Positions 32,633-60,410 of a DNA stretch of 64,000 bases are shown piece by piece (position 1 is the first letter of the stretch; every line of letters begins with the position of its first letter). Where the stretch lies: positions 1 to 64,000 of the IMG/VR virus record IMGVR_UViG_3300033120_000337. One strand, 5' to 3'. This DNA is from a virus. Lineage: Duplodnaviria > Caudoviricetes. The translations under genes and the position numbers were made by a program. The notes beneath the pieces were generated by a model. The model saw only the letters and a list, made by a program, of their open reading frames with translations. It did no database searches and was not told where the DNA came from.

Positions 32633-32665
32633 AAAATGGATGTGTTGATCCAACCATTCAGCAAC
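32633..32665 (+). repeat. dispersed pseudoknot-forming motif, copy 1 of 7
   Basis: AAAATGGATGTGTTGATCCAACCATTCAGCAAC; other copies at 35122, 36293, 38143, 38376, 50723, 60363. Confidence 0.85.
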
Positions 32666-32708
32666 TCATGCGGCTAATCTCAGGTACCTGGCACCTTGAA
32701 GCCATTAC

Positions 32709-32781
32709 GGGCTTGTAGCTCATTTGGGAGAGCGCTTCGATGGCATCGAAGAGGTAAGCGGTTCGATCCCGCTCTGGTCCA
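32709..32781 (+). tRNA. tRNA-Ala(GGC)
   Basis: CTTCG-ATGGCAT-CGAAG; G3:U70. Confidence 0.85.
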
Positions 32782-32918
32782 TTCGTGTGAATACTCGATC
32801 GGGATTACATTGTCCTAACCACAATCGATCTGGGTTCGAATCCCAGGCATCTTCGCAAGAGGGTGAGCAGGGTTGCTAGAAAACATCTCGGTCATTCTTG
32901 TCGCACGATCTATTTTCT

Positions 32919-32991
32919 GTCTCTGTCGTCTAAAAGGCTAGGACCTTGGCCTCTCAAGTCAAGAACAGGAGTTCGAATCTCCTCAGAGACA
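32919..32991 (+). tRNA. tRNA-Glu(CTC)
   Basis: TTGGC-CTCTCAA-GTCAA. Confidence 0.9.
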
Positions 32992-33127
32992 TCAAGCGAA
33001 TTGGAAGTCAGACTACAACCAAGCAGATGGTCGCGGGTTCGAATCCCGTCCTTCGGGTAAAACCGGAGGTAGCTCAGCGGTAGAGCATCCGCCATATACA
33101 CGTCTCCTTCCGTTCTTTGTCGCTTGA
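32992..33127 (+). ncRNA. Y RNA 1 (YrlA-type tRNA mimic)
   Basis: Terminal helix TCAAGCGA/TCGCTTGA with GAAT..TTGTC; T arm precedes a closed acceptor hairpin CCTTCGG-GTAAAA-CCGGAGG, then D arm TAGCTCAGCGGTAGAGC. Confidence 0.8.
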
Positions 33128-33136
33128 ACTATTCCA

Positions 33137-33268
33137 GAGGTGGAATACCTGTGAGGACTACATCTAAACCTCAGTGTCGCTGGTTCAAGTCCAGCCTGCC
33201 CCGCTTCTATGGGGGAGTAGCTCAGTTGGTAGAGCATGAGAATGTCCACGCTAAAACTTGTCCGCCTC
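33137..33268 (+). ncRNA. Y RNA 2 (YrlA-type tRNA mimic)
   Basis: Terminal helix GAGGTGGA/TCCGCCTC with GAAT..TTGTC; T arm GCTGG-TTCAAGT-CCAGC, closed acceptor CTGCCCC..GGGGGAG, D arm TAGCTCAGTTGGTAGAGC. Confidence 0.8.
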
Positions 33269-33283
33269 ACTAACTTCCTTCCT

Positions 33284-33356
33284 GGTGTTTGTAGCTCAAC
33301 GGTAGAGCGCTCGATTGTGGATCGAGATACGAGGGGTTCAACTCCCCCCTTACACC
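33284..33356 (+). tRNA. tRNA-His(GTG)
   Basis: CTCGA-TTGTGGA-TCGAG; G-1 and C73. Confidence 0.9.
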
Positions 33357-33361
33357 CTCAA

Positions 33362-33435
33362 CGGGTATGACGGTCTGGTTGATCTGCTTTCCCTGATAAG
33401 GAGGGCGTGCATGAGTTCGATTCTCTGATACCCGA
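33362..33435 (+). tRNA. tRNA-Ile(GAT)
   Basis: TTTCC-CTGATAA-GGAGG. Confidence 0.8.
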
Positions 33436-33609
33436 TGCCGTGTCCAGGGTCTGTTTGACCTGGCCTCAAGGAACTGGCTCAACAAAAGTTGGGTTGGGCG
33501 CGAACGGATTAGCGTGTGACTCGAATGGGGGAGGTCGTTCTCCCCACTCGCCAGAATGTAGGCCTAGCCGTACCTATGTTCCTGAAAAAAAACTACGGCT
33601 GTTTCTTGA

Positions 33610-33683
33610 TGCGGAGTAGAGCAGTCTGGTAGCTCGCTAGGCTCATAACCTAGAGGTCGGTGGTTCGAATCCATCCTCCGTTA
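33610..33683 (+). tRNA. tRNA-Met(CAT), initiator-like
   Basis: 1:72 mismatch and AGAGCAGTCTGGTAGCTCG D arm; anticodon stem has only two G-C pairs next to the loop. Confidence 0.8.
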
Positions 33684-33752
33684 TTATGCCGGAATCTCAC
33701 CACCATGTTCCCAGGGATGGGACTCCACATGGTGGTCCGGCTCCAACTAAAC

Positions 33753-33825
33753 GGGCATGTAGCTCAGCTGGGAGAGCGGTGGCTTTGCAAGCCATAGGTC
33801 AGGGGTTCGATCCCCCTCTTGTCCA
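33753..33825 (+). tRNA. tRNA-Ala(TGC)
   Basis: GTGGC-TTTGCAA-GCCAT; G3:U70. Confidence 0.9.
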
Positions 33826-33826
33826 T

Positions 33827-33967
33827 GGGAAGATAGCTCAGGAGACGTCTAAGACGTTCGACTTGTCTGAGGAGTACGGGAGACCAAGGGCCCAGAAACA
33901 AAGACAGTTCAGAGCGGCGAGCCAGTAAGCTCGGTGCGCGTCGGTGAAAATCCGATTCTTCCCACCA
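33827..33967 (+). ncRNA. tRNA-like RNA with ~65-nt D-loop insertion and encoded CCA
   Basis: Acceptor GGGAAGA/TCTTCCC-A-CCA; D stem GCTC/GAGC split by insert; CGAGC-CAGTAA-GCTCG; T arm GTCGG-TGAAAAT-CCGAT. Confidence 0.6.
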
Positions 33968-34163
33968 TTTTCCGATAGGTAGTGAATGCCAAATGCGCCT
34001 CGAACCATGAGGAATGAGCGGGGCTAACCACTATCCTTCGGAATCCATTTACTCCTGAAGATGTTGCAAGTAGGTGTCCTGGAAGGTCTTGGGCCAGGAT
34101 AGGAGTTCTCCCCAAGAGAAGGGTTCAAGTCCCACTACTTGCAATGTCTTCAGGTGTAGTTTC

Positions 34164-34235
34164 TCCGCCAAAGCATAAAGGGTGATGCCCCGTCTTGGTA
34201 TGACGGTTAACTGGTTTCAAGCACCAGTGGTGGCT
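34164..34235 (+). tRNA. tRNA-Thr(GGT)
   Basis: CCGTC-TTGGTAT-GACGG. Confidence 0.75.
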
Positions 34236-34245
34236 TGTTTCTTTA

Positions 34246-34654
34246 GGGTCTGTACTGGTTTCGACAGGGTGTGCGAATAGAGAGAGTGCGTGTCGGGCTT
34301 CGTCAGGTCAGCTCGTTAAAAAGATGTGTCAAATAAGCTGCCAACTCAAACAGCTACGTTCCCGCCGCAATGGCTGCGTGAACCGTGGGTACGTGTAGCC
34401 GCCTAGGGCGACATGTACTTGCGTAATCAAATCTAGGTAAAAACCCCGGCTTTTCTTCAGCGGGGGGTCGCAAGACTACTCTGAGGGAATGGTGGAGGGT
34501 ACTACGCGAACCGTGGAACCCCTAAAGGTGGCCCGTTGGGGCTGGGCATCTTAGGTCAAGAGGCTTGCTTCTTGACCACCCGAATTCCAACTACACACGT
34601 AGGACTCGATCTAACTAGCCATTTTGGACGTGGGTTCGATTCCCACCAGATCCA
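34246..34654 (+). ncRNA. ssrA: tmRNA; tag peptide (A)ANSNSYVPAAMAA
   Basis: 5' GGGTCTGTACTGGTTTCGAC; resume codon GCC at 34340 after AAATAAGCT, stop 34379-34381; 3' GACGTGGGTTCGATTCCCACCAGATCCA. Confidence 0.92.
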
Positions 34655-34663
34655 TCAGTGAAT

Positions 34664-34736
34664 GCGGGCGTAGCTCAGTTGGTAGAGCCTCAGTTTTCCA
34701 AACTGAATGTCGTCGGTTCGAATCCGATCGCCCGCT
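34664..34736 (+). tRNA. tRNA-Gly(TCC)
   Basis: TCAGT-TTTCCAA-ACTGA. Confidence 0.9.
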
Positions 34737-34891
34737 ACTCGTCCCCGTGCTGCCAGGGGGAGATCGAGAGATAGGGACCCCTGGACTTGTCCAGGCTAGG
34801 AACCCTACTGGCACAATAGATTTTCGGGTCGGCACGGTTGCGGTGGGTCGCTCCCACCTCGGGTTCAACTCCCATACGGTCCACTCATTTT

Positions 34892-34963
34892 GCGGGTGTA
34901 GGTCAGTGGTAGACCATCAGCTTCCCATGCTGAATGTCGTGGGTTCGACTCCCATCACCCGCT
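34892..34963 (+). tRNA. tRNA-Gly(CCC)
   Basis: TCAGC-TTCCCAT-GCTGA. Confidence 0.9.
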
Positions 34964-35038
34964 CTGGGCTGAATACTCGCCGGGAGTACATCCTTGCACG
35001 GTGAAACCTCTCTCGGTATTTCTTGTCAGTCCTCTAAT

Positions 35039-35109
35039 GACGCTGTCCTTCTGGTGAAGGCATCTGACTGCAAATCAGGTTGAGGGACGTTCAACTCGTC
35101 TCGGCGTCT
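35039..35109 (+). tRNA. tRNA-Cys(GCA)
   Basis: TCTGA-CTGCAAA-TCAGG; U73. Confidence 0.8.
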
Positions 35110-35191
35110 TGACGGTAAGGTGACATGGATGCGCTGATCCAAACCCTCAGCGACCCACAGGGGATTGGATGTAAGTCTACCGTCAGTTTTT

Positions 35192-35263
35192 GTCCTTGTA
35201 GCTCAGTGGAAGAGCAGGAGCCTTCTAAGCTCTTGGTCAGGGGTTCAACTCCCTTCAGGGACG
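35192..35263 (+). tRNA. tRNA-Arg(TCT)
   Basis: GGAGC-CTTCTAA-GCTCT. Confidence 0.9.
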
Positions 35264-35273
35264 TGTTTCTTTA

Positions 35274-35346
35274 GTCCGCATAGTGAAACTGGATATCACG
35301 CATCTCTACGAAAGATGTATTCGGGGTTCGAATCCCTGTGTGGACG
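35274..35346 (+). tRNA. tRNA-Arg(ACG)
   Basis: CATCT-CTACGAA-AGATG. Confidence 0.9.
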
Positions 35347-35429
35347 CTAGTACCTATCATGAATCCTCACCCCTACTTTCGGAAGTCTGAATAAGGGGTC
35401 AGGAAGGAAAGCTCGTCTCAAGATAAACT

Positions 35430-35501
35430 GTCCTTGTGTTGAAGTGGATATCAAGGAAGCCTCCGAAGCTTTCATCCCAAGTTCGAATCTTGGCAAGGAC
35501 G
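35430..35501 (+). tRNA. tRNA-Arg(CCG)
   Basis: GAAGC-CTCCGAA-GCTTT. Confidence 0.85.
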
Positions 35502-35672
35502 TTCCACTGTGTCTCATTCGACGCTCTCGCAGGTGTAGATGAGGAGTCACACAGAAAGGCGTGGGTCTCTCAGCGGTCCACGGGAAGAAAGCATACAGGG
35601 GAAGGCAACTTGCTCTTACTGAGCCCTATCTCAGGAGGGTAATAGCTAGAACTGGAAGCAAGCTGGGGTTTC

Positions 35673-35741
35673 GCCTCTGTCTTCTTGGAGAAGGTCAACT
35701 CTCATAAGGTTGGTGTGACGGTTCGATTCCGTACTGAGGCA
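35673..35741 (+). tRNA. tRNA-Met/Ile2(CAT) with reduced D arm
   Basis: CAACT-CTCATAA-GGTTG; acceptor GCCTCTG/CTGAGGC. Confidence 0.65.
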
Positions 35742-35939
35742 TTGGATGGTCTAAAGGGAAGGAGGCACTTAGCCTGTGTTTCCGGAATCACATGGCTTGT
35801 GATTCCCGAACTTAGACCCTCTGAGTCGTACAAAGCCGTTGGAGACAAACCAACAATGGAGCGGTAGAAGTCCGCGTAAACGGATGTGGAATCCGAACTG
35901 GACAGAATGAGGGTGAGAGACCTTCTGAGTACGATTTTT

Positions 35940-36011
35940 GCGCTTGGATGCCGTTGGATGGCAGCCGCACTGTCTATGCGGTGAAGCTCGGTTCGATTCC
36001 GGTCAGGCGCG
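35940..36011 (+). tRNA. tRNA-Asp(GTC)
   Basis: CCGCA-CTGTCTA-TGCGG. Confidence 0.85.
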
Positions 36012-36169
36012 TTTCCGCTGTGTTCCTGGTAGGTTGCACGTAACAGGGGTTAACACAGAAAGGCGTGGGTGGATGTGCACCCATAGGGAAAAAGTCCAAG
36101 TTCGTGTCGGATGGTGTCTGCGAGTCCTTACGTAGACAGCCAAACAGCGAGTCTTGGGCACATATCTAA

Positions 36170-36241
36170 CGGAGTGTGGCGAAGTGGTATCGCGCTTGGT
36201 TCGGGACCGAGAGATCGCAGGTTCAATCCCTGTCACTCCGA
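36170..36241 (+). tRNA. tRNA-Pro(CGG)
   Basis: CTTGG-TTCGGGA-CCGAG. Confidence 0.9.
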
Positions 36242-36347
36242 AATCCTCATGAGATGGGGAAAAGACCATAGGGTCTTCGTTAATGAGATAGGAAAACGGA
36301 TGCGCTGTTCCAACCCATCAGCGACCTGAGATGAAGAAGAGAAGAAT

Positions 36348-36419
36348 GCACGGGTAGCTCAGCGGTAGAGCGGTTGTCCTACACACAACGGGTCAGGGGT
36401 TCGACTCCCTTTTCGTGCA
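36348..36419 (+). tRNA. tRNA-Val(TAC), C at position 33
   Basis: GTTGT-CCTACAC-ACAAC. Confidence 0.8.
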
Positions 36420-36577
36420 AAACAAAAACCCACCTAGGTAGCAAGGATTCAGTTCCTTGCATAACGTTCAGGGAGGTGGGGAGAGCGGATAGAGTGAACG
36501 TACTCCGCTTACAAATACCGGACAAGGAAGAGCATAGAGAGGTTTCCTCAATACACCTCTTCCTTGATCTTGGACAA

Positions 36578-36657
36578 GCCCGAGTGGTGAAATTGGCATA
36601 CACACCGTCCTCAGAAGGCGGCGCGAAAGCGTGTGGGTTCGACTCCCGCCTCGGGCA
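36578..36657 (+). tRNA. tRNA-Leu(CAG)
   Basis: CCGTC-CTCAGAA-GGCGG; variable arm. Confidence 0.9.
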
Positions 36658-36674
36658 CTGTTTCTGTTTGTAAT

Positions 36675-36758
36675 GAGGATGTGGCGGAATTGGTATACGC
36701 GCCAGACTAAGAATCTGGTGGTCTTAGAATCGTGTGGGTTCGACTCCCACCATCCTCA
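36675..36758 (+). tRNA. tRNA-Leu(AAG)
   Basis: CCAGA-CTAAGAA-TCTGG; Leu-type D arm and variable arm. Confidence 0.85.
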
Positions 36759-36843
36759 TGGGTTAGGCAACTTCGTGCAGACAAAATGTCACTGATCATG
36801 ACGTCGTTGTCGGTCGTTGCCCAACTCAGTTTCTCAGTTCTAT

Positions 36844-36918
36844 GAGGGGATAGCCCAACGGCAGAGGCAGGGTCTTTAAGATTCCCCAAGGTGGTGGGTT
36901 CGAATCCCCCTCTCCTTA
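36844..36918 (+). tRNA. tRNA-Leu(TAA), degenerate anticodon stem
   Basis: GGGTC-TTTAAGA-TTCCC by counting from the D arm; two mismatches. Confidence 0.6.
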
Positions 36919-36923
36919 GTTTT

Positions 36924-37004
36924 GCGAAGGTGGCGGAATGGCATACGCGCTGGGTTTAGGTTCCAGTATCTTCGGGTGTGAGGGTTCGAGTCCCTCTCTT
37001 CGCA
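36924..37004 (+). tRNA. tRNA-Leu(TAG)
   Basis: CTGGG-TTTAGGT-TCCAG. Confidence 0.9.
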
Positions 37005-37024
37005 TTGGTTTTTGAGTCTCAAAC

Positions 37025-37104
37025 GCGGGAATGGCGGAATTGGCATACGCATCGGCTTCAAAACCCGACGAGAAATCTTGAGGGTTCGACTCCCTCTTCC
37101 CGCA
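37025..37104 (+). tRNA. tRNA-Leu(CAA)
   Basis: TCGGC-TTCAAAA-CCCGA. Confidence 0.85.
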
Positions 37105-37138
37105 CAACAACAAACAGAAAGGTAGGTAGACCGTGCAA

Positions 37139-37660
37139 ATGACTCTTGTATTGGATCAAGGCTACCAGCCTCATCGGGTAGTCACATGGCAGCGAGCTGT
37201 GATGCTGTGGTGGGAGGGTAAGTGTGAGGTCGTTGAAGAGTACGACAACGACATTCGAAGTGTGTCCATCACAATCAAGATGCCTGCTGTTGTTCGACTC
37301 TTGCACAGAGTGCGGGGGAAGAAGCAGGCTGTGAAGTTCTCTCGGATCAACGTTGCGACTCGTGACAACTTCACCTGTCAATACTGCGTCAAGAAGCTCC
37401 CTCTCTCGAAGCTTACGTACGACCACGTTGTACCTAAGTCCAAGGGTGGAAAGACTTGCTGGGAGAACATCGTGATGGCTTGTCACCCCTGTAACGAGGG
37501 GAAGAGAGATCGCTCACCCGAGCAAGCAGGTCTGAAGCTGCGTAAGCAGCCAGTCAAACCAGCTTACTTGCCAGTAGTGACCATGAGATTTGAGATGACC
37601 AACATCCCTGATGCTTGGGTATCCTACGTCTACTGGAACTCTCCTCTCGAAGAGGGCTAG
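37139..37660 (+). CDS. HNH endonuclease (free-standing)
   Basis: RDNFTCQYC...LTYDHVVPKSKGG.TCWENIVMACHPCN.GK. Confidence 0.9.
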   Translation: MTLVLDQGYQPHRVVTWQRAVMLWWEGKCEVVEEYDNDIRSVSITIKMPAVVRLLHRVRGKKQAVKFSRINVATRDNFTCQYCVKKLPLSKLTYDHVVPKSKGGKTCWENIVMACHPCNEGKRDRSPEQAGLKLRKQPVKPAYLPVVTMRFEMTNIPDAWVSYVYWNSPLEEG

Positions 37661-38193
37661 TTTTGATTTCGATGTGGTTTCTCTGAATCCGGTCTCTAAC
37701 GAATGGCTGAAGACACTCTCTGGTCACGGGGGGTAAGGCAGCAATCTGGAGAACGGTTGTATCGTCGCTGTGAAGGAAAGTACGGGGCAGGAGATTTCGA
37801 GCTACTAGGCCTGGCATTAGGTTCTCCAGGTTCGAGATCTCTCTGGCAGGCGCTAAGAATACAATCCAGTGCTGCTCGCCTTGAGGGTAAAAGCCCTTCG
37901 AGTTGTTGAAGCCGACCGGCCAGTCGGTTGAGACTCGTGTCCGAATAACTAACTTTCACGGTTACGTCCTGGGGTGGAATCTCAGGTCGATAGAGGACGG
38001 GTTCAGGGAAACCACAAAGATTTCCGGACGACTTTTCGGAGTCGGCAAATGCATGGGCGGGACGGCGTCCATGGGAATACAACGATTGTCAGGTGACTGG
38101 CAGTCAGACCCGTCCTCTTTTCTTTACAGTGTCTCAACTGTGAAAATGGCTGTGCTGAGCCAACCCAATCAGTGACTACCTGTCCGTTGATCT

Positions 38194-38280
38194 GGAAGTT
38201 GAATCTGTCAGGGACAGAGCCTGTTTCGAACACAGTGCGCTCTTCGTAAGAAGAGTGGGGATCAAGACCTCCGATTTCCG
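38194..38280 (+). tRNA. tRNA-Ser(CGA)
   Basis: CTGT-TTCGAAC-ACAG; long variable arm; T-loop ATCAAGA. Confidence 0.75.
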
Positions 38281-38289
38281 TGTCTGATT

Positions 38290-38374
38290 GGAAGCTGAAA
38301 TGGCCAGGGGTCATTACTGCTTGGAAAGCAGCTAGCACCTGAAAGGGTGTGGAGTTCGAGTCTTCCGGCTTCCG
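38290..38374 (+). tRNA. tRNA-Ser(GGA)
   Basis: CTGC-TTGGAAA-GCAG; variable arm. Confidence 0.85.
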
Positions 38375-38445
38375 TGAAATGGATGCGTTGATCCAACCCA
38401 TCAGCGACAAGTCGCGGTTCTAGGCCTGATCAGCAATGTGATAAT

Positions 38446-38532
38446 GGAGGGTAATCTCGGCCGGGCCGAGCACTGCCTTGAAAACAGAGGGCTCCTTGAA
38501 AGAGGGGTGGAGTTCGACTCTTCTGCTCTCCA
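38446..38532 (+). tRNA. tRNA-Ser(TGA)
   Basis: CTGC-CTTGAAA-ACAG; variable arm. Confidence 0.8.
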
Positions 38533-38535
38533 TTT

Positions 38536-38620
38536 GGAAGGTGAACTGGCCAGGGGTCAGTCCGGTTTGCTAAACCGAGAGTGCTCGCAAGGGCATGGGG
38601 ATCAGGACCTCCTCCTTCCG
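38536..38620 (+). tRNA. tRNA-Ser(GCT)
   Basis: CGGT-TTGCTAA-ACCG; T-loop ATCAGGA. Confidence 0.85.
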
Positions 38621-38631
38621 TTTCCGTTTCT

Positions 38632-38703
38632 GCGGGTGTAGCTCAGTGGTAGAGCGTTTCGTTGCCAACGAAAATGTCGCGGGTTCAATCCCCGCTACCC
38701 GCT
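38632..38703 (+). tRNA. tRNA-Gly(GCC)
   Basis: TTTCG-TTGCCAA-CGAAA. Confidence 0.9.
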
Positions 38704-38810
38704 TGTGTGAACTCAACACAACCTCCTAGAGGGTGACGTGTTCTCACAATTTGTCCTCCAGAAAACTGGAGGAAGGAATTCCTGTTCAGGAAAACATCGG
38801 GGTAGATACT

Positions 38811-40442
38811 GTGGCAAACAAGAATCTCTTTCAATCCGCTCCAGCGGGTCGCGTCGCGCCGATTGCCGACACAGTCAACGCAGCTGGTGGTTTGGCGTAC
38901 AAGGCTTCTCAGAAGGAAGCTCTTGCTCAGTACGTGGCTACTGGTTGTCTGGGTTCAACGTTCTACTCGACAGATGAGGAACAGTTGGACACGATCTTGA
39001 AGCTCGCTGCTTCAGTGGATCCTGAGTTCGTTGCGAAGGCAGCGATCTACGGACACAAGTCAGCCTTCATGAAGGACGCTCCGGCCCTCCTTCTGGCTCA
39101 CCTCATGACACGTGGAGAGCCTGGTATCGCAGCCATGAAGTCTGCTTTCTTCCAGGTCATCGACAACCCAAAGATGATGCGGACTTTCGCTCAGATTGTC
39201 CGGTCTGGTCGGGTTGGTCGAAAGTCTTTTGGTACGGCACCAAAGAAGCTGATTGAGACTTGGTTCCTGAACCGTACAGATGCTCAGTTGATCCGTGCAA
39301 CAGGTGACAAGCCTTCGATTGCAGACGTGGTCAAGATGGTTCACCCAAAGCCAGCCACACCTGAGCGGAAGGAAACTTACGCTTGGCTCGTGGACAAGAA
39401 GGTCGACCTCGAAAAGGCAGATCCTCTTCTTCAGGAGTACGAGGCTTGGAAGAAGGACACCACTCGTCCGATTCCTGATGTTCCGTTCCTCATGCTCTCG
39501 AATGCGAAACTCACGAAGTCTCAGTGGGTGGAAATCGCACTCTCTGCTTCTTGGCAGACTTTGCGTATGAACATCAACACGTTCCAACGTCACGGTGTTT
39601 TCGAGGACGCAGCCACGGTCAAAAAGCTTGCAGACAAGCTTCGTGATGAGGACTCGATTCTTCGGGCTCGGGTATTCCCATACCAACTCCTTGTTGCGTA
39701 CAAGCACACTGAGGCTGCTCCCATGGAGATCCAGAACGCTCTTCAGGATGCGATGGAAATTGCGACCAAGAACGTTCCTTCCTTTGATGGTCTGAAGGTT
39801 GCGGTTTTCCCAGACGTGTCTGGGTCTATGGCTTCCCCAGTCACAGGCACTCGAAAGGGTGCTACTTCGAAGGCTCAGTGCAGAGAGGTCGCTGCCCTCA
39901 TTGCAGCTACGATCCTTCGTAGGAACCCAGATGCCATTGTTCTTCCCTTCAAGGAAGACATTGTGAAGCTGAGGTTCAACCCACGCGATTCGATCATGAC
40001 GATCGCCAAGCAGATTGCGGAATGCGGCTCAGGTGGTACAGACTGCTCAGCTCCTCTGAGGGCTCTGAACGCAACCAAGGAGAAGGTGGACATCTGCATC
40101 TTCGCCTCGGACAATGAGTCTTGGATGGACAGCAAGGTCGTTCAAAACTCTTGGTCCTCTGGTTACACATCATCGGCTACCAAGTCGATGATCGAGTGGG
40201 AGGCAATCCGTGCTCGGAACCCAAAGGCGAAGTTGGTTTGCATTGACCTCGCTCCCAACGGCTCACGTCAGGCTCCTACACGTGAGGACATCCTCAATGT
40301 AGGCGGATTCTCGGATGAAGTGTTCACCCTCATGTCTGAGTTCGTAAAGGGCTCAGGTAGAGATCACTGGGTGAAGAAGATCGAGGCGATCGGTTCAAAG
40401 CCTACAGAAACGAAAAACGTTCCTGTAGAGGCTTCACCTTAG
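38811..40442 (+). CDS. rsr: Ro60/Rsr ribonucleoprotein (TROVE + vWA domains)
   Basis: VNAAGGLAY...LAQYVATGCLGSTFY, MKDAPALL, QTLRMNINTF.RHGVF, RVFPYQL, PDVSGSM, GGTDCSAPL, SDNESW; GTG start (track value 38733). Confidence 0.9.
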   Translation: MANKNLFQSAPAGRVAPIADTVNAAGGLAYKASQKEALAQYVATGCLGSTFYSTDEEQLDTILKLAASVDPEFVAKAAIYGHKSAFMKDAPALLLAHLMTRGEPGIAAMKSAFFQVIDNPKMMRTFAQIVRSGRVGRKSFGTAPKKLIETWFLNRTDAQLIRATGDKPSIADVVKMVHPKPATPERKETYAWLVDKKVDLEKADPLLQEYEAWKKDTTRPIPDVPFLMLSNAKLTKSQWVEIALSASWQTLRMNINTFQRHGVFEDAATVKKLADKLRDEDSILRARVFPYQLLVAYKHTEAAPMEIQNALQDAMEIATKNVPSFDGLKVAVFPDVSGSMASPVTGTRKGATSKAQCREVAALIAATILRRNPDAIVLPFKEDIVKLRFNPRDSIMTIAKQIAECGSGGTDCSAPLRALNATKEKVDICIFASDNESWMDSKVVQNSWSSGYTSSATKSMIEWEAIRARNPKAKLVCIDLAPNGSRQAPTREDILNVGGFSDEVFTLMSEFVKGSGRDHWVKKIEAIGSKPTETKNVPVEASP

Positions 40443-40479
40443 ACCTCTTACCGCCTCGGTAGCATCTCTATGCTCCGCC

Positions 40480-40902
40480 ATGAAGAAGAAAGGATTCTTC
40501 ATGGCGGAGAGCAAGAGAAAAGGAGACGTAGGAGAGGCTATGGTGTTGGCCGATGTTTTGAGGCAAGGACACAAGGTCGCTCTCCCTGTGGGTGAGGATT
40601 GGAGATACGACTTAATTGTTCTGAGGCATGGGAAGTTGGAAAGAGTTCAATGTAAGTACGTTGAATCCGATGGCTTGGTGATTGAAGTTCCAGGTCGGAG
40701 TTCAAATTCTCATTCAACTCGTCTATACACCTCAGATGAGATTGACTGCCTCGCAGTTTATGACAAGACAACTGAGTCTTGTTACTACATCCCATCCTCT
40801 GAGATAGGGTCTGGTAAGTCCTTGTTTTCCCTTAGGTTAGTTCCTTCTTCAAATGGTCAGGTTAAGAGAGTACGTTGGGCAAAAGACTACAAGTCTTGGT
40901 GA
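40480..40902 (+). CDS. PD-(D/E)XK endonuclease (group I intron-associated type, free-standing)
   Basis: KGDVGEA.V...L.QGHKV.LP.GEDWRYDLIV...L.RVQCK...YTSDEID.LAVY. Confidence 0.8.
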   Translation: MKKKGFFMAESKRKGDVGEAMVLADVLRQGHKVALPVGEDWRYDLIVLRHGKLERVQCKYVESDGLVIEVPGRSSNSHSTRLYTSDEIDCLAVYDKTTESCYYIPSSEIGSGKSLFSLRLVPSSNGQVKRVRWAKDYKSW

Positions 40903-40907
40903 TTTCT

Positions 40908-40980
40908 GCCTCTATAGCTCAGTTGGAAGAGCACCCTCCTTGTAAGTGGGATGTCGTCGGTTCGATTCCGACTGGAGGCT
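40908..40980 (+). tRNA. tRNA-Thr(TGT)
   Basis: CCCTC-CTTGTAA-GTGGG. Confidence 0.9.
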
Positions 40981-40995
40981 TGGTTTCTGTTTCTT

Positions 40996-41068
40996 GGCCC
41001 CATCGTCTATTGGTTAGGATTGTGGATTTTCACTCCACAAAACGTGGGTTCGATTCCCCGTGGGGTCA
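40996..41068 (+). tRNA. tRNA-Glu(TTC)
   Basis: GTGGA-TTTTCAC-TCCAC. Confidence 0.9.
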
Positions 41069-41082
41069 TTTCATTTCAGCAC

Positions 41083-41153
41083 TCTGGGTTCGTCTAAAGG
41101 CAGGACGTCGGACTTTGAATCCGTGAATGGAGGTTCGATTCCTCCACCCAGAA
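41083..41153 (+). tRNA. tRNA-Gln(TTG)
   Basis: TCGGA-CTTTGAA-TCCGT. Confidence 0.9.
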
Positions 41154-41249
41154 TTTTAGGGGGAATTCCATTTCAATTGACTTCCGCATTGCTCTGAGCT
41201 AGTAGAGATGTGCGGCATTCATTTTGTTGGATGGGTGTTGTTCTGTACC

Positions 41250-41293
41250 GGCGCATGTAAGTGGATCCAACACCACTACATGCGCCTTTTTTT
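41250..41293 (+). terminator. intrinsic terminator closing the RNA island
   Basis: GGCGCATGTAAGTGG...CCACTACATGCGCC followed by T7. Confidence 0.8.
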
Positions 41294-41322
41294 ATTTGGG
41301 GTTTCTGGCGCCTCAAAGAGTA

Positions 41323-41967
41323 ATGAACTCCATGATTTCTGGGTCTGTTGTGCTCTACCATGGGCCTGGTTCTGAGGGTGAAGCTCGAAAGCAGTCACAT
41401 CTACATGGTCTTGTAGTTCCGTTTGGAACTGGGGAGGCCTTGAAGAAAGATGATGTCAGAGATTTGGTGTCTCTACTGAACCAAACTCCAGTTGGCTCAA
41501 AGCCTTGGGGGGTTGTAGTTGGGCCTCTCGATGAGATCTCTCCTTCTGTAGCGGATGTCTTGCTGAAGACTGTGGAGGAGTTCAACCCCACGTGCATCCG
41601 ACCTTTCCTATGGGCTAGAGACCTCGGAGGCGTTCTACCTACGCTTCGCTCCAGATGTCTTCACGAGTTTGTGTCTGGCGAAGACTCTCGTGTGTCTGTA
41701 AGCCGACCACAAGCTGACAAGCTTCTCAAAGCCTACACTCAGAAGAACTGGACTGACATTGTCTCTGAGTTGAAGGAATCCAAAGGCGATGAAGAATTTG
41801 TGCTGCTAGCTTTGGTGGAGGCTGTGCAGGAGCGTCTTTTGGCGGGTAGGGACACAAGTGAAATGCTTGTCTTGTGGCGTTCCTTGCGTAGTTTCTTTGA
41901 GACTCGTGAAGCACCTTCTACTCCAGCTCGTGTGCTCAACATCTTCTTGGAGGGCTCGTTCCCATGA
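41323..41967 (+). CDS. DNA polymerase III delta-prime-like clamp-loader subunit (degenerate)
   Basis: LDEISPSVADVLLKTVEE...LPTLRSRC (SRC motif); no intact Walker A. Confidence 0.7.
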   Translation: MNSMISGSVVLYHGPGSEGEARKQSHLHGLVVPFGTGEALKKDDVRDLVSLLNQTPVGSKPWGVVVGPLDEISPSVADVLLKTVEEFNPTCIRPFLWARDLGGVLPTLRSRCLHEFVSGEDSRVSVSRPQADKLLKAYTQKNWTDIVSELKESKGDEEFVLLALVEAVQERLLAGRDTSEMLVLWRSLRSFFETREAPSTPARVLNIFLEGSFP

Positions 41968-50663: not shown

Positions 50664-50767
50664 GCTTTTGGGGTGTAAGAGATAGTACGAAGAGTCCTTA
50701 CATCTCATGTAACGACCAATCTAAAATGGATTTGCTGATCCAAACCCTCAGCCGTAGGAGATAGAAC

Positions 50768-51520
50768 ATGAGTGGCATGACAGAATTCACAATTGGCGAA
50801 GGCGATGATGGCATTGCCAATAAGAACAAGCGCTTCAAGTGTAAGGAGGGAGAGAAGTATCGAATCTCCTTTGCTTACTGGCCTGGCATGGCTGAAGGCA
50901 CACCCACCCTGAGTGAGGAGTCTCAGGCTCCAAAGTTCGTAGCTTGCAAGCGTTTGTTCCTCCAGGGCGTTGGGTACTTCATGGACAAGGGTCCAGAGTT
51001 CGTGAAGATTGCTGGGGGAGCTGCTTCAAAGATGCAGATTGCCACAATCATCATCAAGTGGCCTCTTGATCGTGATGGTCAGGTTGATGTTGGTGCGATC
51101 AAGGACAAGAAGTTCCAGGTTTTGCCATGGATTTTCTCAGCTGACAAGTACAAGGTGATTGAACAGAATCACCGTGAGTTCCCGCTCAACAAGCACGATT
51201 TGAATCTGGCTTGTACAGACACTCAGTACCAGAAGTTGACAATCTCTCCTTGTCGTGAGTCTCTCTTCAAGAAGCTCTACGATGCCAGAGATAAGGATCC
51301 GAGCATCACCAATGCTTTGATTGCTGCAACCCAAGAGGCAATCCGTGATCTCCAAGGAGAGTTGGCACAGGATCTCACGATCGAACAGATTCGTGAGAAG
51401 CTCTCCAGAGCAAATGGCGGAGTTGGTGGCAACACTGGCGGTGGTGGTGGTGGTGGTTATGGCAACTCTGCTCACACCCCGAAAGAACTTGATTCTATCC
51501 TTGATGACATCCTCGGATGA
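50768..51520 (+). CDS. putative single-stranded DNA-binding protein (gp32-like)
   Basis: AGGAG RBS; Gly-rich linker and acidic tail ELDSILDDILG; replication context. Confidence 0.55.
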   Translation: MSGMTEFTIGEGDDGIANKNKRFKCKEGEKYRISFAYWPGMAEGTPTLSEESQAPKFVACKRLFLQGVGYFMDKGPEFVKIAGGAASKMQIATIIIKWPLDRDGQVDVGAIKDKKFQVLPWIFSADKYKVIEQNHREFPLNKHDLNLACTDTQYQKLTISPCRESLFKKLYDARDKDPSITNALIAATQEAIRDLQGELAQDLTIEQIREKLSRANGGVGGNTGGGGGGGYGNSAHTPKELDSILDDILG

Positions 51521-53638: not shown

Positions 53639-53640
53639 TC

Positions 53641-55084: not shown

Positions 55085-55085
55085 C

Positions 55086-56251: not shown

Positions 56252-56257
56252 TGTTCC

Positions 56258-57238: not shown

Positions 57239-57240
57239 TC

Positions 57241-58224
57241 ATGGCCATGGATCCATTGTGGTGGAGCAACTTGGAGGCCTACGAGGAGTGTCCTCAGAAA
57301 TTTCTCTGGAAGAGAGGCTGGGGGGTTATCGACTTGGGGCGGGGTCCAGGAAGAGGCAAGCCACTGCCTGATGAAAAGACCTCCCAACACAACTCCTTGA
57401 TGGGCCATGTCTTGTCTGAGGCAATTGAACGTCTCTACAATGACGAGCTGTGGAGGGACCCTTCAACTCTTGTAGCAAAGCTCTCAGAGATTGTCGCAAA
57501 GGACTTCGCTATTCGGATCGCGAAGGGTGCGTACATCAAGTACGATGAGAACTGGATTGAGGGTGGGAAGGAGAGGTGGGATTTAGCCCCACCAAAACAC
57601 ATTCTCCTGAAGACATGTACAGACGGGATTCTGAACTACCTGAAGACGATGAAACGTAACCGTCTTCTTGGTCCATACGCAAAATCCGAGGTGGATATCA
57701 AAGCCTCCATTGACAAGGACAATCCTATAGCAGGACGTCCTGACATCTTGATCACTCGGGATGACACTGGGACATCCATCCTTGATGGAAAGAACTCAAG
57801 GAACCCTGGTCGACACACCAACCCAGATCAGCTCAGGTGGTACGCACTGTGTTACTACCTTGCTTTCCACAAGCTTCCAGACCGTCTGGCTTTTGTCTAC
57901 TTTCGGTACCCTGAAGGAAACCCACCTCCAGAAGGTCATGAAGGCTCAAAAGAGTCTTGGACTGGACTAGTTGATGTCCCAGTTGTGAAAGAGGATCTCA
58001 AGGTCCTTGCTCAACGAGCTGTCAACACACGCAGGATGATGTTGAAGGAGTATTTCGAAGCTACTCCGTCGACGAAAGCTTGTGGATTCTGTGATTTCAA
58101 GCCTGTTTGTACCGAACACGCAGCTTGGAAGCAAGCAAATGCCCGCAAGCCAAAAGAGCCTGTGGGTGAAGTCGAGAAGAAAATAGCCAACTCCGTTGGT
58201 TTTGTGTTCTTTGGTGGCGACTAA
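57241..58224 (+). CDS. PD-(D/E)XK RecB/Cas4-like nuclease
   Basis: YEECPQKF, GHVL, AGRPDIL, ILDGKNS, QLRWYAL, CGFCDFKPVC. Confidence 0.8.
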   Translation: MAMDPLWWSNLEAYEECPQKFLWKRGWGVIDLGRGPGRGKPLPDEKTSQHNSLMGHVLSEAIERLYNDELWRDPSTLVAKLSEIVAKDFAIRIAKGAYIKYDENWIEGGKERWDLAPPKHILLKTCTDGILNYLKTMKRNRLLGPYAKSEVDIKASIDKDNPIAGRPDILITRDDTGTSILDGKNSRNPGRHTNPDQLRWYALCYYLAFHKLPDRLAFVYFRYPEGNPPPEGHEGSKESWTGLVDVPVVKEDLKVLAQRAVNTRRMMLKEYFEATPSTKACGFCDFKPVCTEHAAWKQANARKPKEPVGEVEKKIANSVGFVFFGGD

Positions 58225-58256
58225 TTCCACTCCAGACAGTAAGAAGAAGAGGTAGT

Positions 58257-58520
58257 GTGACAGACCTGAAAGTAAGAATCGAGTCCTGCATCAAGCGTAG
58301 AGATGCTTCCCAATCGCAGAAGGAAAGAGCCCTTGGACGCTTAGAGGAGGCAGAGAAAAACCTTGAGAGCATCCGTAAGGAGCTTCTTGAGAAGAAGATC
58401 GAGCCTGAGCGGTTAGACGAGACAATCCAAAAGCTAGAGGCTTCCTTGCAAGCTTCAGTTACAGATTTTGAAACTCAGGTTACTGAGTTAGAGAGATCAA
58501 TCAAACCCTTCGTTCAGTAA
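58257..58520 (+). CDS. small coiled-coil protein
   Basis: Heptad pattern throughout. Confidence 0.6.
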   Translation: MTDLKVRIESCIKRRDASQSQKERALGRLEEAEKNLESIRKELLEKKIEPERLDETIQKLEASLQASVTDFETQVTELERSIKPFVQ

Positions 58521-58556
58521 TGATCCCCGCAGCACTCAGCAACAGTAGGAGTTTCT

Positions 58557-59723
58557 ATGAAGTTTGACGTAGCCAAACGTGACCTTGAGTCGGCTCTCCG
58601 AGTCGTTTCCCACACTGTCTCTATGGGTGGATCTGACATTTCCTCCCACTACCTATTTCGTCGATCAGGTGAGAAGTTGGAGGTTCTCTCCTACAACGGA
58701 CGTGTCTTCTCCTCCTGTCCTGTCGTTGCGACATTCGAAGGTGATGACACCTCTTTCACGATTGAGGCAAAGAGAGTTCATCTCCTATTGGATGCTGTGT
58801 CAGATGACTCAGTCTTGACCGTGGACGGAACTGGCGAGGTCTCTGCCAACACCCGAAAGGGGAAAAACGTTTTCTCCAGCCTGGACCCAGAACTTTTCCC
58901 TTACTGGGATCAGTTGTTGGAGGGCGCCACCAACTCAGCAACAGTCCCCGCAGAGCGAATTTCCGCTGCACTATCTCATGCGAAGTCTTTCGTCTACTCG
59001 GATGAGGCCAAAAGCCCGCATTTGTGTGTGGCAGAATTCCGAAAGGGTTGTGTGTTCAGCACAGATCAGATGGGTGCCAGCGTCGTGAAGGTTGCTGGTA
59101 TGGAGTCATCTGAGGCTCGAATTTTTGGAAAGGACATTGGTGCCATCCTGTCTTTCCTTTCTACATTCAAAACGAAACCTGTGAAGTCTGCTGATGGTGC
59201 TGCGAAGGCAGACCCTGTTGAGGTTCAGATTTTTGAGTGCGAGAAGGCTCTGTTCTTCCGTAGAGGTGATGGGGCTATCTTTGGTGAATCCAAGTTCTCA
59301 CACCGTTTTCCGGAAGTCACTGTGGATTGGGATGACCTCTCAGACGAACATTGGTTTGAACTCAACAAAGTAGAGGTTGCGGACACAATCAAGTTCCTTG
59401 CTGCTGGAGCCAAATGGGATGACATCAAGGTCTTTATTGATCTGAGGCCAGGTTCTGTAGTCTTCTCAATGAAAGCCGCAAATGGGAAGGCAATCTCTTC
59501 GGAGGTCTCAACAAAGGCTCAAGGGTCTTCCTCCACAGAAACGTTGCCTGAGAATGGGTTCCCAGTAGCCAACACCTACATCATGCACCTTTTGTCAAGT
59601 GTGAGCGGAGACACTGTTAGGTTTGGTGTCACGAAGAAGGGCAAGGGTGGGTGGATTCGGGTACTGGATATTCGTGGTGAAGACTCATACCTGACGACTG
59701 TGGCATGGCTCAAAGTCGCTTGA
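58557..59723 (+). CDS. dnaN: DNA polymerase III beta sliding clamp
   Basis: MKFDVAKRDLESALRVV, FPYWDQL, RFPEV; 388 aa three-domain size. Confidence 0.75.
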   Translation: MKFDVAKRDLESALRVVSHTVSMGGSDISSHYLFRRSGEKLEVLSYNGRVFSSCPVVATFEGDDTSFTIEAKRVHLLLDAVSDDSVLTVDGTGEVSANTRKGKNVFSSLDPELFPYWDQLLEGATNSATVPAERISAALSHAKSFVYSDEAKSPHLCVAEFRKGCVFSTDQMGASVVKVAGMESSEARIFGKDIGAILSFLSTFKTKPVKSADGAAKADPVEVQIFECEKALFFRRGDGAIFGESKFSHRFPEVTVDWDDLSDEHWFELNKVEVADTIKFLAAGAKWDDIKVFIDLRPGSVVFSMKAANGKAISSEVSTKAQGSSSTETLPENGFPVANTYIMHLLSSVSGDTVRFGVTKKGKGGWIRVLDIRGEDSYLTTVAWLKVA

Positions 59724-60334
59724 CATCTTTGTCTGAGGATCTCTCGAAGATCCTTGGGCGTCGTGACGCGGTTCGGGAATCTCTTCAGGCTTCCCGAGCT
59801 TCGGTTCGAGTTCTAGCGGAAAAAGTGGATCTTCTGGATCTAGTCTCGGCTCTCCTGCGTTCTCTGATCGACGCCGAGATCACTGAGGGTGTAAAGGCAA
59901 TCGAAACCCTACAGACTGAGGGTGTTCGAGCTGTCTTTGATGACCAGGACCTCTCCGTACGTGCTGATGTTGAGGTTCTCCGAGGCAAGGTGAACGTTTC
60001 TCTTCTCACTTCTCAAAAGAAGGGTGGGGAGACCATCGAGAGCGCGAGCTTGGATGGTTTTGGCGGAGCCGTTTCGACAGTACAGTCTGTGCTTCTTCGG
60101 CTGGCTCTGATCTTTCGTAGAGGTCTACGTCCCGTCTTGTTCTTGGATGAGAGTCTCCCTGCGTTTGATGAGAAGTATGTCTTGAACATGGCTTCATTCC
60201 TGAAAACTCTGTGCGCTCGGACTGGTGTAGACATCCTACTTGTCACACACAACCCTCTCTTGGTGGAGGCTGCTGACCGTGCGTATCGAATTCGTAGGGA
60301 TAAGGACCAAGCTTCTTTCCATAGGATTCGATAG
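59705..60334 (+). CDS. Rad50/SbcC-like ATPase, C-terminal half
   Basis: Signature FGGA, Walker B VLFLDE, H-loop LVTHN, ADRAY. Confidence 0.85.
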   Translation: MAQSRLTSLSEDLSKILGRRDAVRESLQASRASVRVLAEKVDLLDLVSALLRSLIDAEITEGVKAIETLQTEGVRAVFDDQDLSVRADVEVLRGKVNVSLLTSQKKGGETIESASLDGFGGAVSTVQSVLLRLALIFRRGLRPVLFLDESLPAFDEKYVLNMASFLKTLCARTGVDILLVTHNPLLVEAADRAYRIRRDKDQASFHRIR

Positions 60335-60410
60335 GGGAGATTTATGACTGAATTCGTTCTAGGAAATGGATGTGCTGATCCAACCACTCAGCAACCGAAA
60401 GAGTAACCAG

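What the first reader, a model, noticed from the sequence alone, without database searches (positions are those of the whole stretch)
32633..60395. Dispersed ~33-nt motif (7 copies) with covarying H-type pseudoknot
Seen: copies at 32633, 35122, 36293, 38143, 38376, 50723 and 60363, all on the + strand; consensus AAAA-TGGAT-GYGYTG-ATCCA-AMCMN-TCAGCRAC. Stem 1 covaries: TGGAT/ATCCA becomes TGGCT/AGCCA at 38143. Stem 2 (loop GCTGA with downstream TCAGC) also covaries: T-A at 32633 and 60363, C-G at 35122, 36293 and 38376. Five copies lie upstream of tRNAs and two lie in the 5' leaders of protein genes (50768, 60411). Compensatory changes point to selection on RNA structure rather than a DNA operator. 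Established: type III toxin-antitoxin ToxI repeats are ~35-nt H-type pseudoknots preceded by A-rich ToxN cut sites, and phage PhiTE escapes ToxIN using pseudo-ToxI RNA. Inference: an antitoxin mimic, an exonuclease-blocking or processing element, or an undescribed cis-regulatory motif. The 3' flanks lack an A-rich second cut site, which weakens the ToxI model.
Basis: partly seen in the sequence, partly recalled or inferred. Interest (0 to 1): 0.85.

Follow-up and report, generated by a model that had tools for sequence, protein, structure and literature searches.

The report
Dispersed RNA pseudoknot in huge phage
A 33-base element scattered through a fragment of a very large phage genome is real, most likely folds into a small RNA pseudoknot and looks like a recent insertion, but what it does is inferred, not shown.

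Summary
All seven reported copies are at the stated coordinates. An eighth lies on the minus strand (6544-6576), 2 nt before a minus-strand tRNA-Met. A second phage record (G001) has six more. All 14 point the same way as the local genes.

Both proposed stems keep pairing through compensatory changes: 94% of cells are paired and 0 of 500 shuffles reach the observed score. One stem-1 pair occurs as A-U, G-C and C-G. Three stem-2 pairs change on both sides. A folded sense-strand RNA is therefore well supported, either an H-type pseudoknot or two overlapping hairpins.

The motif is confined to one narrow lineage: this record, G001 and a relative about 92% identical in protein. Syntenic relatives at 60-80% lack it, tRNA islands included. 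In homologous spacers and leaders it looks like an insertion or replacement.

It matches no Rfam family. The ToxI model gives no hit, no ToxN gene is seen, and the copies are dispersed rather than tandem.

My best guess (about 0.4) is a modular processing or 5'-end-stabilising signal in pre-tRNA and mRNA. Rivals are a protein operator, an antitermination signal, a DNA-level site and a selfish element.

One copy abuts the ribosome-binding site of a gp32-like SSB gene. The scan had also noted this stretch from another window of the same genome (e1-5918141), not on other DNA.

The parts
6544..6576 (-). Copy 8 (new). It starts 9 nt after the stop of the minus-strand ORF 6586-6915 and ends 2 nt before the minus-strand tRNA-Met 6466-6541. 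Stem 1 carries a G-C variant and stem 2 an A-U double change.
32633..32665 (+). Copy 1, 44 nt upstream of tRNA-Ala(ggc) at 32709.
35122..35154 (+). Copy 2, in the 81-nt spacer between tRNA-Cys and tRNA-Arg(tct). The homologous spacer of relative L019 has an unrelated 14-nt stretch at this position.
36293..36325 (+). Copy 3, 10 nt after the promoter-like motif 36257-36282 and 21 nt before tRNA-Val. Stem 1 is degenerate and stem 2 intact.
38143..38176 (+). Copy 4. Stem 1 is a C-G variant and loop 3 is 1 nt longer. It lies about 20 nt before a tRNA-Ser-like gene.
38376..38408 (+). Copy 5, between two tRNA-Ser-like genes and 36 nt before 38445-38532.
50723..50755 (+). Copy 6, in the leader of the gp32-like SSB gene. 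The 3' arm of stem 2 ends 4 nt before the Shine-Dalgarno sequence. It lies about 40 nt after a conserved promoter-like 11-mer at 50671.
60363..60395 (+). Copy 7, in the leader of the 218-aa gene 60411-61067. It is absent from the 92% relative L016, whose whole intergenic stretch differs.
50768..51520 (+). gp32-like single-stranded-DNA-binding protein gene, downstream of copy 6.
   Evidence: AF2 model with pLDDT 85. VIA-align Z 9.0 and 8.6 over 165 residues to RB69 and T4 gp32; the next unrelated row is 3.9. Foldseek's top 4 rows are gp32.
36257..36282 (+). Promoter-like motif (a 9-mer, 12 nt, then a 5-mer) directly upstream of copy 3. The same motif occurs at 2716, 31453 and 31516 (+) and at 2698 and 27191 (-).
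6466..6541 (-). tRNA-Met downstream of copy 8.

Best explanation
The motif is a lineage-restricted, dispersed cis element that is transcribed in the sense direction. It folds into a compact H-type pseudoknot: stem 1 of 5 bp, a 1-nt loop, stem 2 of 5 bp (a sixth pair, A22-U33, only in the hairpin-alone form), then an A/C-rich 6-7-nt loop, preceded by a conserved A-rich single-stranded flank. Shown: the copies exist, the pairing is maintained by compensatory change, orientation follows local transcription, and the motif is tenfold enriched in the untranslated tRNA island. Also shown: it appears as an insertion or replacement in otherwise homologous spacers and leaders, and it is dispensable for individual genes. 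Inferred: it acts as modular RNA punctuation. A nuclease, host or phage, would cut in the A-rich flank. Alternatively a transcript starts just upstream, as at copy 3. Either way the pseudoknot sits at the 5' end of the downstream pre-tRNA or mRNA and shields it from end-dependent decay. This is as in T4, where an RNase E cut at -71 lies just upstream of the gene 32 pseudoknot (about -67) and the gene 32 transcripts are unusually stable. Confidence that it is a functional folded RNA is about 0.8. Confidence in this particular function is about 0.4.
For: There are 14 copies with a clean gap to background (CM R1). Structure counts: 94.3% of cells are paired against 88.5 +/- 1.2 in shuffles (0 of 500). 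The covariation score is 0.311 against 0.180 (0 of 500). Slid controls reach at most 45% paired. Pair 14-23 is A-U in 8 copies, G-C in 5 and C-G in 1, with no mismatch (permutation p 6e-5). Pair 17-38 is U-A in 6, C-G in 5 and U.G in 2 (p 0.01-0.03). All four combinations of these two pairs occur, so the changes arose more than once. RNAalifold recovers stem 2 on its own. G.U cells outnumber A.C cells 6 to 2 on the sense strand. All 14 copies share the orientation of the local genes, including the single minus-strand copy inside a minus-strand unit. Promoter-like motifs lie 10-45 nt upstream of copies 3, 6 and 11/12. Five copies lie in about 10 kb of tRNA island, against 3 in the other 62 kb of this record. 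The T4 precedent for an RNase E cut next to a leader pseudoknot on a stable mRNA is in PMC3014915.
Against: There are no RNA-end data, so no cleavage or stabilisation is shown. The 5' flank is only A-rich and matches no defined nuclease consensus. tRNA 5' leaders are removed by RNase P anyway, so a stabiliser there is of unclear benefit. In G001 one copy lies upstream of a promoter-like motif rather than downstream. Another lies inside the last 27 codons of an ORF. Stem 1 is broken in 3 to 4 of the 14 copies. All copies come from one narrow lineage, probably two parts of one genome type, so the covariation is among paralogues only. The shuffle control does not correct for relatedness.
Confidence: 0.4

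Rival explanations
1. It is an operator for an RNA-binding regulator. A phage protein would recognise the pseudoknot and control the translation or fate of the downstream RNA, as T4 gp32 nucleates on its own leader pseudoknot. One candidate is the gp32-like SSB encoded after copy 6.
For: Copy 6 ends 4 nt before the Shine-Dalgarno sequence of a gp32-like SSB gene. A G001 copy ends 1-3 nt before a Shine-Dalgarno sequence. Unpaired positions are conserved (G16, A27, C29, A39, C40), as expected for a protein site. A lineage-specific motif fits co-evolution with a lineage-specific protein. The T4 and RB69 precedent is in PMC3014915 and PMC535899.
Against: Six of the eight copies in this record precede tRNA or tRNA-like genes, where translational control has no meaning. 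The distance to the start codon varies from 12 to about 95 nt. The long unstructured A/U-rich stretch of the T4 operator is missing. Orthologous SSB leaders of relatives carry a different hairpin, and the motif replaced its 3' arm. No partner protein has been identified.
Confidence: 0.15
2. It is a processive antitermination or anti-Rho signal. The nascent RNA would modify RNA polymerase, as HK022 put does, or recruit Nus-type factors. Long untranslated tRNA arrays and operons would then be read through.
For: The motif is tenfold enriched in the 10-kb untranslated tRNA island, which should be exposed to Rho. Copies 3 and 11/12 sit just after promoter-like motifs. Part of the motif loosely resembles the rrn boxA sequence; this rests on my own recollection and was not tested.
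Against: Relatives with equally long tRNA islands have no such motif and no analogous repeat. Several copies are far from any promoter-like motif. Known cis antiterminator RNAs are larger and occur once or twice per genome.
Confidence: 0.1
3. It is a DNA-level site. It could be a promoter for a phage-specific polymerase or sigma factor (possibly hairpin-dependent as in phage N4), a directional repressor site like the mycobacteriophage L5 stoperators, or a folded single-strand recombination site.
For: It is intergenic, co-oriented with transcription, and divides the tRNA island into blocks. A sigma-70 consensus scan finds fewer sites than chance in the island (1 against 5.2), so other signals must drive transcription. 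In G001, copy 10 supplies a -35-like hexamer 17-18 nt before a conserved element of the 816-aa gene leader.
Against: Double-stranded recognition does not predict compensatory changes in two overlapping stems. No -10-like element follows the other copies (inspection). In two leaders the Shine-Dalgarno sequence starts 1-4 nt after the motif, so a start site downstream of it would remove the ribosome-binding site. A separate, better promoter candidate exists and occurs at strand switches and at the head of the tRNA array.
Confidence: 0.12
4. It is a selfish miniature mobile element. Its hairpins would be needed for its own spread, for example recognition of folded single-stranded DNA by a transposase or recombinase acting in trans. 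It would have no function for the phage.
For: It shows insertion-like presence and absence in homologous spacers and leaders. Decayed copies exist in the close relative. It is very narrowly distributed.
Against: No Y1 transposase is seen in the roughly 30% of the genome available. There are no consistent target-site duplications. Orientation matches transcription in all 14 copies, including the one minus-strand copy. The wobble bias favours RNA.
Confidence: 0.1
5. It is a decoy RNA against a host defence, either a type III antitoxin (ToxI-like) mimic or a solitary CRISPR-repeat mimic.
For: It is a small pseudoknot preceded by an A-rich flank. One tandem pair in G001 is spaced 36 nt apart, the same as the ToxI repeat length, which I recall from memory.
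Against: The ToxI model gives no hit and Rfam has no match. No ToxN gene is present in either fragment. The copies are dispersed and lack a second cut site. A scan of one genome per prokaryote species (185,579) found only 3 isolated single hits against about 1.6 that I estimated by chance, and no repeat array. The position that would be the core base of several protein-binding motifs varies with its pairing partner.
Confidence: 0.04

Closest known systems
Autoregulatory pseudoknot of the T4/T2/RB69 gene 32 mRNA leader
   Same: Both are compact H-type pseudoknots in a phage mRNA leader. From my own recollection of the T2 NMR work, which I could not check here, that pseudoknot also has a 1-nt first loop and a 7-nt second loop. 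One copy here precedes a gp32-like SSB gene. In T4 an RNase E cut lies just upstream of the pseudoknot and the resulting mRNA is very stable (PMC3014915).
   Different: There are 14 dispersed copies, mostly next to tRNA genes, rather than one gene-specific site. There is no long A/U-rich unstructured region between the pseudoknot and the ribosome-binding site. There is no sequence similarity. Relatives' SSB leaders carry a different hairpin, which the motif partly replaced.
PeSL cassettes of T4-like phages (PMC2839356, PMC4122927)
   Same: Both are short conserved intergenic motifs dispersed through a large phage genome and associated with indels and replacements between close relatives.
   Different: PeSLs are composite terminator plus early-promoter DNA signals. 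This motif has no sigma-70 hexamers and no U-tract. Its conservation is in two overlapping stems.
RNase III processing sites of phage T7 (own knowledge)
   Same: Both are about ten conserved structured sites in intergenic positions, co-oriented with transcription, that punctuate polycistronic RNA.
   Different: T7 sites are long irregular hairpins of about 60 nt cut by host RNase III. This is a 33-nt pseudoknot with no long duplex.
ToxI antitoxin RNA of type III toxin-antitoxin systems (Rfam RF02519)
   Same: Both are small pseudoknot-forming units of about 34-36 nt with an A-rich flank.
   Different: There is no match to the family model, no tandem array, no adjacent or detectable ToxN gene, and no second cut site.
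Bacterial REP/BIME and similar miniature repeats (own knowledge)
   Same: Both are short structured extragenic repeats. They spread within one genome, are transcribed within operons and can stabilise RNA.
   Different: REPs are simple imperfect palindromes found in both orientations and linked to a RAYT transposase. Here the orientation is strictly that of transcription and no such enzyme is seen.

Membership tests
ToxI (type III antitoxin RNA, RF02519) | Match to the family covariance model | tested here: not met
   RF02519 was searched on both records at E up to 10. No hit falls on any of the 14 copies, and the best unrelated hit is 12.8 bits against a 50-bit cut-off. No ToxI row appears.
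ToxI (type III antitoxin RNA, RF02519) | Tandem array of repeats directly upstream of a ToxN-family toxin gene | tested here: not met
   The copies are dispersed over 54 kb, with only one tandem pair, in G001. PF13958 is absent from both fragments, which cover only about 15% of a genome each.
ToxI (type III antitoxin RNA, RF02519) | Toxin cut site on both sides of each unit | tested here: not met
   An A-rich 5' flank is present in most copies. The 3' flanks in the window are not A-rich.
T4 gene 32-type translational operator | Pseudoknot in the leader of the phage SSB gene | tested here: met
   Copy 6 lies in the leader of a gp32-like gene. The fold is supported by covariation among copies.
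T4 gene 32-type translational operator | More than 40 nt of unstructured A/U-rich RNA with UUAAA repeats between the pseudoknot and the start codon (PMC535899) | tested here: not met
   Only 4 nt separate stem 2 from the Shine-Dalgarno sequence, and 12 nt separate the end of the motif from the ATG.
T4 gene 32-type translational operator | Specific binding and repression by the SSB | not testable with these tools
   This needs protein-RNA binding and reporter assays.
PeSL promoter-terminator cassette | Stem-loop terminator joined to a sigma-70-type early promoter | tested here: not met
   The consensus scan of 31000-41500 reports no promoter at any copy and no terminator there. No U-tract follows either stem.
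Any Rfam 15 family | Covariance-model match | tested here: not met
   E-value scans of 30000-64000 and of short stretches around four copies gave only noise-level rows.
Solitary CRISPR repeat (RNA anti-CRISPR) | Same sequence as the repeat of a CRISPR array in a host genome | tested here: inconclusive
   A degenerate 28-nt pattern in one genome per species gave 3 isolated single hits and no array. The host is unknown and may not be represented.
REP-like element mobilised by a Y1 (RAYT) transposase | Co-occurring Y1 transposase gene | tested here: inconclusive
   PF01797 is absent from both fragments, but about 70% of the genome is not available.

The most novel reading that the evidence does not exclude
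The motif is a mobile RNA pseudoknot cassette. This 33-nt folded unit recently spread to perhaps 40-50 sites of a roughly 0.5-Mb phage genome, replacing older leader structures. It would work with a lineage-specific trans-acting protein, a nuclease or RNA-binding factor not yet identified, to set RNA ends or RNA fate for both tRNAs and mRNAs. That would be a phage-wide post-transcriptional 'address label' with no described counterpart.
Probability: 0.15. Interest if true: 0.8.

Novelty: new variant of a known kind. Interest (0 to 1): 0.55.

Why it matters
Huge phages carry long tRNA islands and hundreds of genes, and how their RNA is handled is essentially unknown. This motif is short, has many copies and carries clear compensatory changes. 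It also shows natural presence and absence between close relatives. That makes it an unusually tractable handle for asking how such phages process or protect their RNA, and how small regulatory modules spread within a genome. If a dedicated partner protein exists, the pair could also serve as a compact RNA tag and reader. If the motif proves to be a passenger repeat, it still marks recent recombination in this lineage.

Tried and rejected
- **Looking for the motif elsewhere.** Two degenerate patterns in viral contigs, one in metagenome contigs and one in genome contigs found only G001. The other hits are chance-like and lack stem 1.
- **Protein-anchored relatives.** I fetched SSB, Ro60 and the 816-aa protein from ten loci at 50-80% identity. 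None carries the motif by profile or covariance model. No analogous non-tRNA repeat is seen in three of them.
- **Small-peptide reading.** The ATG inside the motif is missing in 2 copies. The frames and lengths differ between copies, the compensatory changes fall on second codon positions, and no Shine-Dalgarno sequence precedes it. Rejected.
- **Sigma-54 promoter, T4 MotA box or sigma-70 promoter inside the motif.** The spacing or the -10 element does not fit (inspection). Rejected.
- **CsrA/RsmA site.** The 5' half resembles the GGA-type consensus as I recall it. However, the A of GGA varies to G or C together with its pairing partner. Rejected.
- **tRNA-like minihelix or CCA-type 3' end.** No consistent CCA follows either stem. 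Rejected.
- **Terminator.** There is no U-tract, and two copies sit between a promoter-like motif and the gene. Rejected.
- **Target-site duplication.** A 6-nt direct repeat flanks copy 3 only, and none of the others has one. Not pursued.
- **G001 as an independent lineage.** G000 and G001 share no protein similarity. They do share GC content and both repeated motifs, and each is about 77-78% identical to proteins of the same 473-kb contig. I therefore treat them as parts of one genome type, not as independent lineages.

Full report
**What the record is**

The window is the first 64 kb of a 72,447-bp virus record. CheckV rates the record about 16% complete, so it is a fragment of a phage of roughly 0.4-0.5 Mb. 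It carries:
- 35 ARAGORN tRNA genes and a tmRNA between 31.5 and 41.2 kb;
- a Ro60/TROVE homologue;
- ribonucleotide reductase, a RecD2-like helicase, RecA-like and SbcCD-like genes and a primase.

Relatives with the same gene order sit on contigs of up to 473-485 kb.

**The observation**

The 16-nt core gives 13 matches at up to 3 mismatches against 2 expected by chance. A profile of the copies separates 8 sites (E below 1e-8) from everything else (E about 1) in the whole record.

The eighth copy lies on the minus strand at 6544-6576. It starts 9 nt after the stop of a minus-strand ORF and ends 2 nt before the only minus-strand tRNA. So the orientation of the motif follows local transcription, not simply the + strand.

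A second virus record, G001 (73,282 bp, about 14% complete), has six copies. All lie on the strand of its genes, and two are in tandem 36 nt apart.

**Structure**

- 94.3% of cells form standard pairs, against 88.5 +/- 1.2 in column shuffles (0 of 500).
- The covariation score is 0.311 against 0.180 (0 of 500).
- Sliding the partners by 1-3 columns drops pairing to 14-45%.

Stem 2 is paired in 98.6% of cells, and three of its five pairs change on both sides. Stem 1 is paired in 90% of cells. Its pair 14-23 occurs as A-U (8 copies), G-C (5) and C-G (1), with no mismatch (permutation p 6e-5). The two most variable pairs occur in all four combinations, so the compensatory changes did not arise once in a single subfamily.

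RNAalifold, which cannot draw pseudoknots, recovers stem 2 as a 6-bp hairpin. Each hairpin alone is worth only -4 to -7.6 kcal/mol, apart from the degenerate stem 1 of copies 3, 11 and 14.

The geometry is that of a classic H-type pseudoknot: 5 bp, 1 nt, 5 bp, no junction nucleotide, then a 6-7-nt A/C-rich loop. Two mutually exclusive hairpins cannot be excluded by sequence alone.

Non-Watson-Crick cells are G.U six times and A.C twice on the sense strand. This mildly favours sense RNA.

Caveats:
- Stem 1 is broken in copies 3, 11 and 14 and weakened in copy 9.
- All sequences are paralogues from one lineage.
- The shuffle control does not model relatedness.

**Is it transcribed, or is it the promoter?**

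A second repeated motif looks like the real promoter. It consists of a 9-mer, 12 variable nt and a 5-mer, with an ECF-sigma-like layout by my reading. It occurs:
- as a divergent pair at a strand switch (2698/2716);
- before minus-strand genes (27191);
- as a tandem pair just before the first tRNA (31453, 31516);
- 10 nt before copy 3 (36257);
- at several places in G001 and in relative L019.

A third motif, an 11-mer at 46651, 50671 and 62212, lies about 40 nt upstream of copy 6. It is conserved upstream of the SSB gene in relatives.

So copies 3, 6 and 11/12 lie downstream of likely start sites. At two protein genes the Shine-Dalgarno sequence begins 1-4 nt after the motif. A start site downstream of the motif would delete it.

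These points, plus covariation in two overlapping stems, argue against a conventional promoter or operator. One G001 copy lies upstream of a promoter-like motif, and one lies in the tail of an ORF. The motif is therefore not confined to 5' leaders.

**Distribution and history**

The motif is narrow in distribution. It is absent from viral, metagenome and genome collections apart from G001. It is also absent from ten syntenic loci of relatives at 50-80% protein identity, including two full tRNA islands.

A relative at about 92% identity (L016/L026) behaves as follows:
- It keeps copy 6 with a 1-nt deletion in the long loop.
- It lacks copy 7, and the whole intergenic stretch there is different.
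- It has two decayed copies elsewhere.

In the tRNA-Cys to tRNA-Arg spacer the flanks align with relative L019, but the motif replaces an unrelated 14-nt stretch. In the SSB leader the motif replaces the 3' arm of a hairpin whose loop is still recognisable and whose stem covaries among relatives.

G000 and G001 share no protein similarity. They do share GC content and both repeated motifs, and they relate at similar identity to the same 473-kb contig. They are best read as two parts of one genome type.

The density then implies some 40-50 copies per genome. Density is about 0.5 per kb in the tRNA island against about 0.05 per kb elsewhere.

**Comparison with known things**

No Rfam family matches. 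The ToxI model finds nothing on any copy and no ToxN gene is present. No CRISPR array with this repeat turned up. No Y1 transposase or sigma factor gene is present in the fragments.

A 38-sequence alignment gave a confident model (pLDDT 85). Its only clear structural matches are RB69 and T4 gp32: Z 9.0 and 8.6 over 165 residues, with the next unrelated row at 3.9.

T4 gp32 represses its own mRNA through a leader pseudoknot. An RNase E cut just upstream of that pseudoknot yields a very stable mRNA (PMC3014915, PMC535899). The resemblance is real for copy 6. It cannot explain the other 13 copies, and the A/U-rich region of the T4 operator is missing.

**Mechanism**

I commit to a modular RNA punctuation signal. 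The pseudoknot, preceded by an A-rich single strand, would mark and protect the 5' end of the downstream RNA, after cleavage or at a nearby start.

This fits six observations:
- the sense-strand structure;
- the A-rich flank;
- the enrichment in a long untranslated array;
- the position between genes;
- the dispensability for any one gene;
- the T4 precedent.

It remains an inference. Its confidence and those of the rivals (a protein operator, an antitermination signal, a DNA-level site, a selfish repeat, a decoy RNA) are given in their own sections.

**Verdict**

This is a new, very young, insertion-like pseudoknot repeat of unknown function in a huge phage.

Noticed in passing
window 38733-40442 (+); 33138-33270 and 33026-33089 (+): A phage-encoded Ro60/TROVE homologue (vWA_Ro60 2e-19) sits inside the tRNA island with YrlA-type Y-RNA-like hits (53 and 36 bits, below the 69-bit cut-off). 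Phage-clade Ro60 relatives are 60-78% identical. Bacterial ones (Acidobacteria, Planctomycetes, Myxococcota) are about 52-55% identical.
   Followed up: partly
window 2673-2741, 27166-27191, 31453-31541, 36257-36282; G001 and L019:2867: A repeated promoter-like motif (a 9-mer, 12 nt, then a 5-mer) occurs at strand switches and at the head of the tRNA array. Its layout resembles ECF-sigma promoters. No sigma-factor gene is present in the fragments.
   Followed up: partly
window 46651, 50671, 62212 (+): A second conserved 11-mer is seen three times on the + strand. It is also conserved about 70-85 nt upstream of the SSB gene in distant relatives, so it may be another promoter class.
   Followed up: partly
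window 38197-38282, 38286-38371, 38445-38532, 38537-38620 (+): Four tRNA-Ser-like genes (anticodons cga, gga, tga and gcu as read by eye) are not called by ARAGORN. Rfam scores only the third, as tRNA-Sec-like at 46.9 bits.
   Followed up: partly
window 36843-36919 (+); G001 5855-5931 (-): There is a tRNA with anticodon TTA (would read UAA) in the window and one with CTA (would read UAG) in G001. Long ORFs nevertheless read normally under table 11.
   Followed up: no
window 50663-50767 versus L005, L006, L017, L018, L019 leaders: Orthologous SSB-gene leaders in relatives carry a hairpin whose stem differs between lineages while a C/A-rich loop sequence is kept. Its 3' arm ends at the Shine-Dalgarno sequence, so it may be a gene-specific operator.
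   Followed up: partly
window 7260-7405 (+): A perfect 73-nt tandem duplication spans the start region of ORF 7371-8024.
   Followed up: no
window 11326-11417, 22317-22408, 30247-30338 (+): Three copies of a roughly 92-nt stretch (62-75% identity) lie at the 5' ends of three ORFs, that is, a shared N-terminal segment on otherwise different proteins.
   Followed up: no
window 29614-29697: There are three tandem units with a period of 24 nt.
   Followed up: no
G001 68493-68420 (-); L028:4300-4372; L029:9930-10000: The leader of the conserved 816-aa gene keeps a short 8-nt element followed by a hairpin that holds the Shine-Dalgarno sequence, across relatives 78-80% identical.
   Followed up: no
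window 37133-37660 (+): An HNH homing-endonuclease gene lies inside the tRNA island, and relatives have one or two at similar places. It may drive the mosaic structure of the spacers.
   Followed up: no
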